Below, piece by piece: positions 39,001 to 42,000 of a stretch of 47,236 nt of DNA; within the stretch, counting starts at the first letter, position 1; the number at the start of each line of letters is the position of its first letter. The stretch comes from a virus. Lineage: Duplodnaviria; Heunggongvirae; Uroviricota; Caudoviricetes. The DNA is taken from the IMG/VR virus record IMGVR_UViG_2522572021_000009, one strand, 5' to 3'. The position numbers are program-made.

Positions 39001-42000
39001 GTCTGACCCAAGTTGAACTTGGCAAGCTTTCTGGCGTAACTGGGGTAACAATAGGATACTGGGAGAAAGATCTAAACGAACCAGGTAGCAAAGCTCTTAG
39101 TAAATTAGCCCTAGCACTAGGCACTACTGAGTCCTATCTCCTGTATGGAGTATCATCACCTGAATCATCCCTTGTGCAGAAAAATCCAGGTACCCAAATC
39201 CCATACCTTTCTTGGGGAGAAGCGATTTCTTTCCTAATATTAAAAGGAGAGAAAACTATGGGAAATGTCGACAGGATCACCACATTCTTTGATGTCAAGG
39301 AGGGAGATTTTGCCGTTTCAATGCCTGATGATACTATGCACAATCCATCAGGGTCCCCAAGCATTCCAGTTGGAGCCACAGTGATCATGAGGCCTGGCGA
39401 AAAATATAAAAATGGTAGCATCGTCGCAGTAATAGTCCCAGATCCACTCACAAACGAACCATCCATGACTATAAAAAAATTAGTTATTGATGGAAAGCTC
39501 GTGTACTTAGCCCCCCTTAACCCACGCTATCAATCATCCTTACTTACACCGGAATGTAACATCGTTGCTGTAGCAAAAGGTGTTCAGTTCAGCCTCTAGC
39601 TCCCGCTTTGCCCTGTAATCAGAGGTCGGCTTTGTCGGCCTTTTATCTTAAAAATATTTATATTCAACTTGACAGCAAAACTAAATATTCTTATATTCAT
39701 TGCAACCCACCCCGCTTCACAGAATGCAGGGCAATACTTCGAGTTACCCGGCAGTGGTCAGGGGTTAAGTAGCCAGCCCGAGGCGTATGAACATGACGGC
39801 GGGAACACTTTGTATAACAGCGCAGCAGGTTTTTAGTTCCGCGACCCGGCGTTAAGGGGGAATGAGGTCAACATGGATACGCTCAATCTTGGCAACAACG
39901 AATCTCTGGTATGCGGCGTGTTTCCCAACCAGGACGGTACGTTCACCGCGATGACGTATACCAAAAGCAAAACGTTTAAAACTGAAGCTGGCGCGCGTCG
40001 CTGGTTAGCCAGAAACACTGACTGATGAGGTTGACGATGGAATTTAAAGATTTACCTCCTTCAATCCAGGAGATTGCAGCACACACACTTCGTCATCGTC
40101 TGAACGAACTTGAATTGGAATCGGTAACGAAAAAAGACACTGATAATATGGCTCGTAATGTGCGCGATGCGTTTACCGGATTGTATTTCTGTGCGTCTAT
40201 AAATAAACACGACTCAGAGAGTGTGGCAAATAAAATTGCAGAAACGACAGCGCAAAACATCAATACGAAACCAACGGAAGAAGAAATTGATCAGTTTGCT
40301 CATGATGCTGGTTTAAAAAACAAGAAAGAAAAATCGCCATATGCGGGGAACATGTTTGTTTATGACAATCTCATCAGAATTCGTGGCGAAATTCCGGCGG
40401 AATACCTGGCAAGAGTCCATCAGGCATTGCTTAAAAATTTGGAAACAGAATTATTTGATGGCAACACTAACGGTTTCTTCATGGTATCAGGCCTTGAGAA
40501 AGACTGGGATGCAGAAAAACGCTGGAATGTTGCTACATGGTTATTCAGTAACAGAGCCGCTGCACTGGAAGCTTCGGCATGTATTTGCGGCCTGTTCTTA
40601 ACAGACCACAAATATAATCTGGATGTGTACAGTTATATTTACGCTGAACACGGTCCACTCTGGATTGACTGGTAATTATAAGGAAACACCAGCAGGGCCG
40701 CGGCGACCAACAGAACGATTAAAATCAATAATGCCATTATAAAGGACATTATTTAATTTATCGTCGAATGCTGATTCTGTGAGCCTCAACTCTGAATGAG
40801 TTTTTAATAACCCTGATTGCCTGAGTTGATTTACCAGGCATTCAATCTGTTTTTCAATAAGCGGATTTCTTTTTTTGTTTGGCATTTTATCCTCCATTGA
40901 GGTTCTGGGTTAAAAATGGAGACCAACACGCTGTCACGTGTGGTCGTGCGCCGGACACGGATAAGAATCCGGTACTGACAGTTTACTGAAAGGATATTTC
41001 CCTGAAAAGTCAGGGCATAACGCGAAAGCGTACGGCGAAGCTCTTTCCCTTAGAAGGCTTGTCGTTAGATTTCTTCGAACGTGCGCTTCCGGTTGTGGCA
41101 CTCCGCGAAATGGCGCGGCGGTAAGTATGGCGGGGTTATTCCTTCCCCGTTGAGGACACCGGGTTGTCAGGTTGACCATACGCTTAAGTGACAACCCCGC
41201 TGCAACGCCCTCTGTTATCAATTTTCTGGTGACGTTTGGCGGTATCAGTTTTACTCCGTGACTGCTCTGCCGCCCTTTTTTAAAAGTGAATTTTGTGATG
41301 CGGTGAATGCGGCTCAGCGCACGCGGAACAGTTAAAACCAAAAACAGTGTTATGGGTGGATTCTCTGTATCCGGCGTTAATTGTTAACTGGTTAACGTCA
41401 CCTGGAGGCACCAGGCACCGCATCACAAAATTCATTGTTGAGGACGCGATAATGGAAAAGTTATCATGTAATGCCAGCACGTCTGAACTTCGTTTCGAAA
41501 TTGGCGTTATCACTGGAGACAAAACATTTATTGAAGACGCCATTAAGCAGAGAAAACTCGAGCAGGACCTGTTAAATGAAGTATGCATTCCTTCAATGCT
41601 GGCTCGTCTGGACCTGCTGCAAAAAGGATATAAACAATGAATACAACATTTGCACTCGTTCTGACAGTTTATCTTGTTTCCGGCGAATCTCTTGAGCTGG
41701 TGACTGGCTTATACGGTTCAATGAAAGAATGCATGGCTGCAGCAGCAGAACAAAAAATTCCCGGTAACTGTTATCCGGTAGATAAAACTACTCACACTAA
41801 TAATAACGAAATACCGGCAGGACTTTAAAACAGCACCGTAATTAATATCCGGTTTCATTTTTATATGCCAGCAATGGCAGGGATTTGTTCACCCTTAAAT
41901 CTGTAATGAGGTTAAAACAAAATGAGTAAAGTCTTTATTTGCGCCGCCATTCCGGACGAACAGGCAATAAAAGAAGAGGGCGCAGTTGCTGTAGCCACTG

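What the first reader, a model, noticed from the sequence alone, without database searches (positions are those of the whole stretch)
40025..40897. Convergent abutting gene pair inside the pL operon
A 216-aa plus-strand gene is followed, with stop codons touching, by a 69-aa minus-strand gene that has a strong GGAGGA RBS. The region is AT-rich and sits between the YdfA-like gene and dicF, where K-12 Qin carries only tiny ydfB/ydfC. Tail-to-tail pairs with tightly packed ends are typical of acquired two-component cargo (toxin-antitoxin-like or defence/anti-defence).
Basis: inference. Interest (0 to 1): 0.55.

Follow-up and report, generated by a model that had tools for sequence, protein, structure and literature searches.

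The report
Conserved tail-to-tail prophage gene pair
Two uncharacterised genes that face each other in the early operon of an E. coli prophage form a conserved two-gene module, found in about 11% of complete E. coli genomes including O157:H7, but what it does is still unknown.

Summary
Gene A (40037-40675, +, 212 aa; the longest ORF starts at 40025) and gene B (40676-40885, -, 69 aa, GGAGGA five bases before the ATG) have touching stop codons. They lie in an AT-rich ~925-bp cassette that replaces ydfB/ydfC of Qin, between a DUF1391 (ydfA-like) gene and dicF.

Both genes are under purifying selection, and only the annotated B frame is open. They co-occur almost perfectly: 600 versus 597 of 5426 complete E. 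coli genomes, and all 74 IMG/VR loci that carry B.

Remote relatives of A's C-terminal domain (30-39% identity, different N-terminal domain, different prophage type) are again followed by a convergent B homologue (46-52% identity). Other C-terminal domain types pair with other small convergent genes.

All these small genes share a ~95-nt leader of two hairpins plus a hairpin that buries the ribosome-binding site. A -10-like hexamer sits at a fixed distance upstream.

No Pfam, NCBIfam, PADLOC, PDB or fold match gives a function.

A positional analogue, Sakai ECs1762, is made in uninduced cells and crosslinks to RNA (PMC7618764).

Best reading: an inducible acidic early protein plus a small basic partner made in the lysogen. 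It is two-component cargo, but not a demonstrable toxin-antitoxin or known defence system.

The parts
39669..39697 (+). pL / dicBp-type early promoter (TTGACA-17-TATATT) that should drive ydfA-like, A, dicF and dicB
   Evidence: Consensus scan, 11 of 12 matches. The position matches dicBp of Qin, which is the only promoter of the dicBF operon (PMC10448788).
39873..40025 (+). ydfA-like DUF1391 gene, the left neighbour; its TGA overlaps the upstream ATG of the A ORF (TGATG)
   Evidence: Pfam PF07151, E 3.6e-30; sequence.
40037..40675 (+). Gene A, 212 aa, acidic (pI 5.2). It has an N1 helical-hairpin domain (about residues 1-57, 40037-40207), a variable linker, and an alpha/beta C-terminal domain (about residues 98-212, 40328-40672)
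   Evidence: phrog_2151, E 1.9e-147. RefSeq WP_000394548.1. dN/dS 0.17-0.54. Domain limits. AF2 secondary structure. pI.
40676..40885 (-). Gene B, 69 aa, basic (pI 9.7), predicted as two helices plus an invariant C-terminal GRRGPAGV-L tail. It contains an A7 run at codons 3-5 that is A6 (frameshifted) in some copies
   Evidence: phrog_4274, E 1.4e-51. RefSeq WP_001133037.1. pN/pS 0.15 in this frame only, and it is the only open frame. AF2. Alignments. Frameshift allele.
40892..40921 (-). HP3: a hairpin in the B leader in which CUCCAU pairs with AUGGAG, burying the GGAGG ribosome-binding site
   Evidence: Conserved upstream of the small convergent genes aligned (B, B', B4 types and the L248b leader) but not in Evi (B'') or Tritos. 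Predicted by RNAfold in most variants.
40922..40944 (-). HP2: a hairpin whose stem sequence differs between lineages while pairing is kept
   Evidence: Stems seen: ACACG/CGTGT, CTCCAC/GTGGAG, CCCAAC/GTTGGG, CCCGA/TCGGG, CCAAT/ATTGG.
40950..40973 (-). HP1: a near-invariant hairpin, GCCGGAU(G/U)CUUA(C/U)C(C/U)GUGUCCGGC. It marks the right boundary of the cassette and is the probable 5' end of the B mRNA
   Evidence: Alignments. Two G.U pairs form only on the B-sense strand (inspection). Single copy in the window. No Rfam family.
40980..41008 (-). Candidate promoter of B: -35 TTTTCA (41008-41003), 17-nt spacer, -10 TAAACT (40985-40980)
   Evidence: 8 of 12 matches, below the scan threshold (and inspection). 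A -10-like hexamer, often TGn-extended, lies 6 nt upstream of HP1 in at least 6 unrelated upstream contexts.
41224..41275 (+). DicF sRNA, the right neighbour. By analogy with Qin, it is made by processing the transcript that must cross B in antisense
   Evidence: Rfam RF00039, 76.7 bits; PMC10448788.

Best explanation
The pair is a real, conserved, convergently transcribed two-gene accessory module carried in the early operon of Qin-like and cox-type prophages of Escherichia and Salmonella.

Gene A is a modular, acidic, soluble protein. It has a swappable N-terminal domain and a roughly 100-residue alpha/beta C-terminal domain. It is transcribed only when the prophage repressor releases the pL/dicBp-type promoter.

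Gene B is a small, basic, two-helix protein with an invariant C-terminal RRG-PAGV-L tail. It is transcribed leftward from its own weak, extended -10 type promoter. Its leader begins with two hairpins and ends in a hairpin that hides the ribosome-binding site.

B is therefore probably made at a low level in the lysogen. On induction, the early transcript that must read through it in antisense to reach dicF and dicB would switch it off.

The type of A's C-terminal domain and the type of small gene change together as one unit. So B is most likely the cognate partner of that domain, probably a neutraliser or 'immunity' factor for an otherwise harmful or phage-specific early effector.

Shown: gene reality, linkage, modularity, the shared leader. 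Inferred: reciprocal expression, physical A-B pairing, the direction of the antagonism.
For: Both genes are coding and under purifying selection. A has omega 0.17-0.54. B has omega 0.05-0.27. Only the annotated B frame is open, with pN/pS 0.15 against about 1 in the other frames.

Co-occurrence is near-perfect. All 74 IMG/VR loci with B carry A with abutting stops. A's C-terminal domain is in 600 of 5426 complete E. coli genomes and B in 597.

Remote homologues of A's C-terminal domain keep the partner. P0187 and P0175 are 30-39% identical, carry a different N-terminal domain, and P0175 has an inserted HTH. They sit after a Phage_Cox gene in another prophage type. Each is followed by a convergent, overlapping B homologue at 46-52% identity.

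Other C-terminal domain types pair with other small convergent genes in the same slot: A'/B', A''/B'' and N2-HTH-CTD4/B4. Tandem A/B and A'/B' modules occur in Salmonella.

The small genes aligned from the B, B' and B4 types and the L248b copy share the HP1-HP2-HP3 leader. HP2 shows compensatory stem changes and HP3 pairs with the ribosome-binding site. A -10-like hexamer sits at a fixed distance upstream.

One remote locus has a strong intrinsic terminator for the B-like transcript inside the 3' end of the A-like gene.

In Qin, DicF comes only from the dicBp transcript (PMC10448788). The early transcript must therefore cross B in antisense.

The charges are complementary: A pI 5.2 (P0187 4.6) and B pI 9.5-9.9.

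The positional analogue ECs1762 is found as a protein in uninduced Sakai.
Against: No interaction, toxicity or expression data exist for A or B themselves.

Two genes with no DNA between them cannot easily be separated by recombination. Linkage within E. coli alone therefore proves little, and the argument rests on three remote loci.

B is dispensable in some lineages where A is intact: the A7-to-A6 frameshift and an internal deletion of B in the 'WIDWFKG' sub-family.

Proteins with the N1 domain exist without any convergent partner, for example Stx2a phage P13374 ORF16.

The window's own candidate promoter for B is weak (8 of 12), and the same sequence is present in Qin-type phages that lack B.

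AF2 models are of low confidence (pLDDT 66 and 63.5) and no fold match is informative.

The analogue ECs1762 binds RNA, which points to a different role for the small protein.
Confidence: 0.45

Rival explanations
1. The two genes are functionally independent and only travel together. They sit in one recombination cassette bounded by conserved sequence: the N1 domain on the left and HP1-HP2 on the right. A is an ordinary early accessory protein. B is a lysogen-expressed 'moron' embedded in antisense in the early operon, like sieB, and acts on something other than A.
For: There is an architectural precedent. In Sakai Sp10 the exclusion gene sieB (ECs_1937, +) is convergent with, and overlaps by 4 nt, ECs_1939 (-) inside the leftward early operon.

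B is lost while A stays intact.

N1-domain proteins occur without a partner.

The same leader precedes unrelated leftward genes, and other leftward cargo is inserted at the HP1 boundary.
Against: The specific combination of A's C-terminal domain with B is kept at 30-39% and 46-52% identity in a different prophage type, with a different N-terminal domain and different neighbours. The overlap geometry also changes (0, 11 and 53 nt), which argues against simple hitch-hiking.
Confidence: 0.28
2. B is a small RNA-binding regulator, not a protein partner of A. Made in the lysogen, it binds the early (dicBF-type) transcript, the A mRNA or host RNAs, and tunes leaky expression or processing of the toxic dicF/dicB operon.
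For: ECs1762 is the small convergent gene in the same slot of Sakai Sp9. It was enriched in the UV-crosslinked RNA-bound proteome of uninduced cells, and its RNA crosslinking was confirmed by PNK assay (PMC7618764).

B is basic (pI 9.7), with a Lys/Arg-rich N-terminus and an RRG-containing tail.

B lies directly upstream of the DicF precursor.
Against: ECs1762 (phrog_10348) is not homologous to B (phrog_4274). B has no recognisable RNA-binding domain. This idea does not by itself explain why the small gene co-varies with A's C-terminal domain.
Confidence: 0.15
3. The pair is a classical toxin-antitoxin or abortive-infection defence system.
For: It is a small, tightly packed two-gene unit in an AT-rich acquired cassette. 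B has a conserved, probably disordered C-terminal tail that ends in hydrophobic residues and could act as a degradation signal; this is my inference.
Against: There are no hits in PADLOC, Pfam, NCBIfam or PDB. The genes are convergent rather than one operon. A is under the repressed early promoter, so it would be silent in the lysogen, which a defence system should protect. B is lost while A stays intact.
Confidence: 0.08
4. The minus-strand ORF is not translated, and the conserved sequence acts only as an antisense RNA or as part of the DicF precursor.
For: No direct proteomic evidence for B was found. The leader hairpins could fold on either strand.
Against: The substitution pattern is frame-specific and the frame is open in all variants. 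Protein-level conservation is 46-52% where the DNA has diverged. A conserved ribosome-binding site and start codon are present.
Confidence: 0.04

Closest known systems
sieB-type superinfection-exclusion genes embedded in antisense in lambdoid/Rac early-left operons (e.g. Sakai Sp10 ECs_1937)
   Same: The gene lies on the opposite strand inside the repressor-controlled early operon. Its 3' end touches or overlaps a convergent early gene. It is expected to be expressed from its own promoter in the lysogen (established knowledge of sieB, from memory).
   Different: There is no sequence similarity. The annotated Sp10 SieB gene is ~200 codons and SieB is, from memory, a membrane protein, while B is a 69-aa soluble basic protein. 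sieB is not known to co-vary with the domain type of the convergent gene.
Pore-forming colicin operons, where an SOS-repressed toxin gene faces a constitutively expressed immunity gene on the opposite strand (established knowledge, from memory; not tested here)
   Same: An inducible effector faces a small convergent gene with its own promoter. The family shows a conserved N-terminal part, a variable C-terminal domain and a matching small partner.
   Different: A has no colicin, toxin or translocation domains and no secretion signal. B is not a membrane protein. Toxicity and protection are untested.
Qin dicBF operon (ydfA-ydfB-ydfC-dicF-dicB-ydfD)
   Same: The operon frame is the same: promoter, DUF1391 gene, DicF, DicB, DUF1482 gene and exonuclease. 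HP1-HP2 and the DicF precursor are conserved.
   Different: ydfB and ydfC (both + strand) are replaced by A (+) and B (-). The early transcript must therefore cross a gene in antisense.
[not shown]
   Same: It occupies the same slot upstream of dicF/dicB. It has the same N1 domain in the + gene and the same convergent small gene, with a 23-nt overlap and the HP1-HP2 element. ECs1762 is made in uninduced cells and crosslinks to RNA (PMC7618764).
   Different: It has a different C-terminal domain (phrog_1363) and an unrelated small protein (phrog_10348).
Type II toxin-antitoxin modules
   Same: It is a compact two-gene unit on a mobile element, and one member is a small protein with a probably disordered tail.
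   Different: The genes are convergent, not bicistronic. There is no family match. The putative 'toxin' is under lytic control. The small gene is dispensable in some lineages.

Membership tests
PHROG families phrog_2151 (A) and phrog_4274 (B), both of unknown function | Full-length match to the family profile | tested here: met
   A: E 1.9e-147 over profile positions 1-212 of 212. B: E 1.4e-51 over 1-69 of 69.
Qin-type dicBF early operon | A repressor-controlled promoter followed by a DUF1391 gene, DicF sRNA, DicB and a DUF1482 gene on one strand | tested here: met
   91-92% DNA identity to Qin-like phages on both sides of the cassette.
Type II toxin-antitoxin | Two genes co-transcribed as one operon | tested here: not met
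   The genes are convergent with touching stops.
Type II toxin-antitoxin | Homology of either protein to a known toxin or antitoxin family | tested here: not met
   Pfam, NCBIfam, PADLOC and PDB give nothing at E up to 1-10.
Type II toxin-antitoxin | The antitoxin cannot be lost while the toxin is intact | tested here: inconclusive
   B is frameshifted or deleted with A intact in several lineages. However, A is expected to be repressed in lysogens, so the loss may be tolerated.
Type II toxin-antitoxin | Toxicity of one component, relieved by the other | not testable with these tools
   This needs expression experiments.
Known anti-phage defence systems (PADLOC-DB 2.0) | A match to a defence-system protein model | tested here: not met
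   0 families for both proteins at E up to 1.
sieB-like lysogen-expressed exclusion gene | Opposite orientation inside the early-left operon, 3' end against a convergent early gene | tested here: met
   compare Sp10 sieB.
sieB-like lysogen-expressed exclusion gene | Own promoter and expression in the lysogen | tested here: inconclusive
   There is a candidate promoter at a fixed distance from the conserved leader, but it is weak in the window (8 of 12). Only the positional analogue ECs1762 has been detected in uninduced cells.
sieB-like lysogen-expressed exclusion gene | Sequence homology to SieB, or a membrane protein | tested here: not met
   No family hit. B is hydrophilic, GRAVY -0.53.
Polymorphic effector / cognate immunity pairs (colicin-like logic) | A conserved N-terminal part, a variable C-terminal domain, and a small adjacent gene that changes with the C-terminal domain | tested here: met
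   Five combinations were found: N1-CTD1/B, N1-CTD2/B', N1-CTD3/B'', N2(+/-HTH)-CTD1'/B1' and N2-HTH-CTD4/B4.
Polymorphic effector / cognate immunity pairs (colicin-like logic) | A recognisable toxin domain and a delivery or secretion apparatus | tested here: not met
   No toxin or translocation domains were found.
Polymorphic effector / cognate immunity pairs (colicin-like logic) | Specific binding and neutralisation between cognate partners | not testable with these tools
   No multimer prediction or experiment was available.

The most novel reading that the evidence does not exclude
Prophages of Escherichia and Salmonella carry a polymorphic 'early effector / lysogen-made partner' system. 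The early protein has a swappable N-terminal domain and one of several C-terminal domain types. Each type is matched by a small protein encoded tail-to-tail and expressed from a shared, structured, translation-gated leader. The resident prophage's small protein would neutralise the matching effector. That effector could be its own, when expression is leaky, or that of a superinfecting relative. This would give a type-specific layer of phage-phage immunity, or of lysogeny stabilisation, separate from repressor immunity.
Probability: 0.2. Interest if true: 0.75.

Novelty: new variant of a known kind. Interest (0 to 1): 0.55.

Why it matters
The module is common. It is in about 11% of complete E. 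coli genomes, with up to four copies per genome. Carriers include O157:H7 EDL933 and O26, O103, O111 and O145 strains among those listed. It sits directly upstream of the toxic dicF/dicB genes, yet both proteins are annotated only as hypothetical.

Three features define a concrete system that can be tested by genetics: the small gene co-varies with one domain of the facing gene; the two are transcribed towards each other from a lytic and a probable lysogenic promoter; and the small genes share a portable leader that hides the ribosome-binding site.

If the pairing is functional, it would add a new kind of type-specific control or competition module to lambdoid prophages. It could also explain why this slot of the dicBF operon is hypervariable.

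The sister allele ECs1762 already has an unexplained RNA-binding activity in EHEC.

Tried and rejected
**Sequence families.** Pfam, NCBIfam, PADLOC, and PDB by sequence and by profile gave nothing for A, B, the N1 domain or the C-terminal domain.

**Wider searches.** A scan of GTDB species-representative genomes with the C-terminal domain profile found nothing. An exhaustive HMMER search of 1.84 billion representatives found only 60 relatives, mostly other proteins with the N1 domain.

**Promoter and terminator.** The sigma-70 site at 40913..40884 (-) overlaps B's start codon and cannot serve B. No intrinsic terminator lies between or just beyond the two genes in the window.

**Rfam.** No family matches the leader.

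**Literature.** Nothing was found on 'ybl81', the WP accessions or peptide strings.

**Supplement.** The table of PMC7618764 that might list B's Sakai orthologue is not held.
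Full report
**1. Where the window comes from and what is at the coordinates**

The 1.5-kb region is 100% identical to a lambdoid prophage next to rspB in E. coli O145:H28 RM12581/RM13514. The ORF list and sequence show a + ORF at 40025..40675 and a - ORF at 40676..40897. Their stop codons (TAA|TTA) touch.

RefSeq and the PHROG profiles place the starts slightly inside both ORFs.
- A starts at 40037 (212 aa, WP_000394548.1), with GAGG six bases upstream.
- B starts at 40885 (69 aa, WP_001133037.1), with GGAGGA five bases upstream.
- In a remote homologue the upstream ATG of B is out of frame, which supports the 69-aa start.

GC content falls to 0.355-0.45 across the pair, against 0.50-0.555 in the flanks.

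The left neighbour is a DUF1391 (ydfA-like) gene. To the right lie DicF (Rfam 76.7 bits), DicB, a DUF1482 gene, an exonuclease, xis and int. A near-consensus promoter, TTGACA-17-TATATT, lies at 39669-39697 downstream of the cI-like LexA-family gene.

Comparison with the Qin-like phage Tritos shows that homology stops at about 40016 and resumes at about 40945. So a ~925-bp cassette replaces ydfB and ydfC.

**2. Both ORFs are genes**

I took eight cassette variants that differ by up to 23% in DNA.
- A has dN/dS 0.17-0.54, with dS up to 0.7.
- B has dN/dS 0.05-0.27.

In the B region, only the annotated frame is free of stops in all eight variants. It has pN/pS 0.15, against about 1 in four other frames. 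The antisense frame in codon register gives 0.25 but carries 29 stops.

**3. Linkage**

- All 74 IMG/VR loci with B carry A convergent with abutting stops, even where A is only 67-69% identical.
- The A loci that lack B are contig ends, with one exception.
- In complete E. coli genomes, A's C-terminal half is found in 600 of 5426 genomes (751 places) and B in 597 (744 places).
- The module is in O157:H7 EDL933 (RS09910 and RS09905).
- RM12581 has four copies of the B 5' region.

There are exceptions.
- An A7-to-A6 frameshift at B codons 3-5 occurs with A intact. It is in 8 IMG/VR loci and at least 6 complete genomes, including a second copy in RM12581.
- In the sub-family whose A ends in 'WIDWFKG', most of B is deleted.

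**4. No known function**

Pfam, NCBIfam, PADLOC and PDB (single sequence and profile) give nothing. PHROGs places the two in families of unknown function.

Homologues in 5.8 billion proteins are confined to Escherichia and Salmonella. An exhaustive profile search of 1.84 billion representatives finds only 60 relatives.

AF2 gives two helices for B. For A it gives a helical N-terminal half plus a beta-beta-alpha-beta-beta-alpha-beta C-terminal domain. Confidence is low for both (pLDDT 63.5 and 66.4). Fold searches are uninformative.

A is acidic (pI 5.2) and B is basic (pI 9.7). Both are hydrophilic.

**5. A is modular, and its C-terminal domain is what travels with B**

The first ~57 residues (domain N1) occur on many small phage proteins with unrelated C-termini. 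Some of these have no convergent partner, such as ORF16 of Stx2a phage P13374.

The C-terminal domain has two remote relatives:
- P0187 (220 aa);
- P0175 (286 aa, with an inserted XRE-type HTH).

They are 30-39% identical to A over that domain and carry a different N-terminal domain, N2. They lie in another kind of prophage, directly after a Phage_Cox gene next to the integrase and repressor.

In each case the next gene is a convergent, overlapping 64-69-aa B homologue, 46-52% identical, with the same IEKQIEC / SGLLK / RRG-PAGV-L motifs. The overlap differs (53 and 11 nt, against 0 in the window), so the arrangement has been kept while the DNA changed.

This is the strongest evidence that the pair is a functional unit.

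**6. The slot holds other, analogous pairs**

- N1 with a second C-terminal type (A', 112-119 aa) faces B' (64 aa, phrog_4987).
- N1 with a third type (A'', 135 aa, phrog_1363) faces B'' (77 aa, phrog_10348) in phages Evi and PPompW and in Sakai Sp9, as ECs_1763/ECs_1762.
- N2-HTH with a fourth C-terminus faces B4, which is weakly similar to B'.
- A Salmonella prophage carries A/B and A'/B' in tandem.

So the type of small gene changes together with the C-terminal domain of the facing gene, while the N-terminal domains are swapped independently.

**7. A shared leader**

Upstream of the small leftward genes aligned here (B, B', B4 types and the L248b copy) lies the same ~95-nt element, read on the B-sense strand. 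B'' (Evi) has HP1-HP2 but no HP3.
- **HP1** (window 40950-40973) is near-invariant.
- **HP2** (40922-40944) has a stem sequence that differs between lineages while pairing is kept. Five different stems were seen.
- **HP3** (40892-40921) pairs CUCCAU with AUGGAG and so buries the ribosome-binding site.

This is shown. HP1 has two G.U pairs that would be A-C mismatches on the other strand, by inspection. That is weak evidence that the B-sense RNA is the functional strand.

A -10-like hexamer (TAAACT, TAAAAT, TATAAC or TATAGR, often with TGn) ends 6 nt upstream of HP1 in at least six unrelated upstream contexts. No shuffle reached the observed score (0 of 2000), but several rows are related to one another.

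In the window the candidate promoter is TTTTCA-17-TAAACT at 41008-40980. It is weak (8 of 12). One remote locus has a strong intrinsic terminator for the B-like transcript inside the 3' end of the facing gene. The window has none.

HP1-HP2 and the -10 also occur in Qin-type phages without B, and after P13374 ORF16. They therefore also mark the cassette boundary. Rfam has no matching family.

**8. Expression logic**

In Qin, DicF and DicB come from a single polycistronic transcript that starts at dicBp. No internal promoter was found (PMC10448788; see also PMC5069750). By homology, the early transcript here must read through B in antisense to reach dicF.

B can therefore only be made efficiently when the early promoter is repressed, which is the lysogenic state. 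This step is an inference.

It has indirect support. ECs1762 is the small convergent gene of the sister allele in Sakai Sp9. It was significantly enriched in the RNA-crosslinked proteome of uninduced cultures, and its RNA crosslinking was confirmed with a tagged construct (PMC7618764).

**9. Interpretation**

The reading best supported by the evidence is an inducible early protein whose C-terminal domain is matched by a small partner made in the lysogen. The two are expressed reciprocally because they are transcribed towards each other.

The closest analogies are these.
- sieB genes embedded in antisense in early-left operons. In Sakai Sp10, sieB overlaps a convergent early gene by 4 nt.
- Pore-forming colicin operons, where an SOS-controlled toxin gene faces a constitutive immunity gene. 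This is from memory and was not tested.

The pair is not a member of either family: there is no homology, B is not a membrane protein, and no toxin domain was found. Nor is it a classical toxin-antitoxin pair or a catalogued defence system.

The main rival explanations are simple hitch-hiking of two independent cargo genes, and an RNA-binding role for B. I cannot exclude either. The argument for pairing rests on three remote loci, and there is no interaction, toxicity or expression data for A or B themselves.

**10. Verdict**

Novelty: a new variant of a known kind, namely prophage accessory cargo with an antisense-embedded gene expressed in the lysogen. The polymorphic pairing and the portable leader are undescribed, as far as the searchable literature shows.

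Noticed in passing
window 40922-41008; also L002 (Tritos) about 3620-3700 and L237 (P13374) about 2950-3010: The HP1-HP2 element and the -10-like hexamer are present in Qin-type phages that have no small leftward gene, and directly after ORF16 of an Stx2a phage. Qin itself may therefore make a short leftward transcript antisense to the 3' end of ydfC. Alternatively the element may be a recombination boundary, or an RNA signal on the early transcript.
   Followed up: partly
window 40871-40877 (T7 on the + strand, A7 in B codons 3-5); second copy in NZ_CP007136.1 at 1746146-1746218: The homopolymer run at the start of B is one base shorter in some copies, which frameshifts B while A stays intact. 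The strain that the window comes from carries four copies of this region, one of them with the frameshift.
   Followed up: partly
L075 4547-5434: In the A sub-family that ends in 'WIDWFKG', B is reduced to a remnant. Another leftward gene (172-211 aa, phrog_1244, unknown function) is inserted at the HP1 boundary upstream of the dicB-like ORF; no DicF reached the Rfam gathering score in L075.
   Followed up: partly
L241/L242 5001-6500 and 8250-9580: A Salmonella prophage carries A/B and A'/B' modules in tandem. They are followed by repeated isrK and C4 antisense-RNA genes and by Phage_ASH / 'Derepression' genes.
   Followed up: no
L244 4776-4801 (- strand): A strong intrinsic terminator (10-bp stem plus a U-run) for the B-like transcript lies inside the coding 3' end of the convergent A-like gene. 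The window has no equivalent.
   Followed up: no
L250 (Sakai Sp10) 8157-8920: The sieB-like exclusion gene ECs_1937 (+) overlaps the convergent early gene ECs_1939 (-) by 4 nt inside the leftward early operon. This is an annotated precedent for the tail-to-tail layout.
   Followed up: no
[not shown]
   Followed up: partly
window 40023-40027: The stop codon of the ydfA-like gene overlaps an in-frame upstream ATG of the A ORF (TGATG). This could allow a 216-aa form of A by translational coupling, in addition to the 212-aa form that has its own GAGG site.
   Followed up: no
L248 1877-2541: A second copy of the leader precedes a short ORF and a 155-aa hydrophobic-looking leftward ORF directly beside the A-like/B-like pair. 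This suggests that the leader serves as a general expression cassette for leftward cargo.
   Followed up: no
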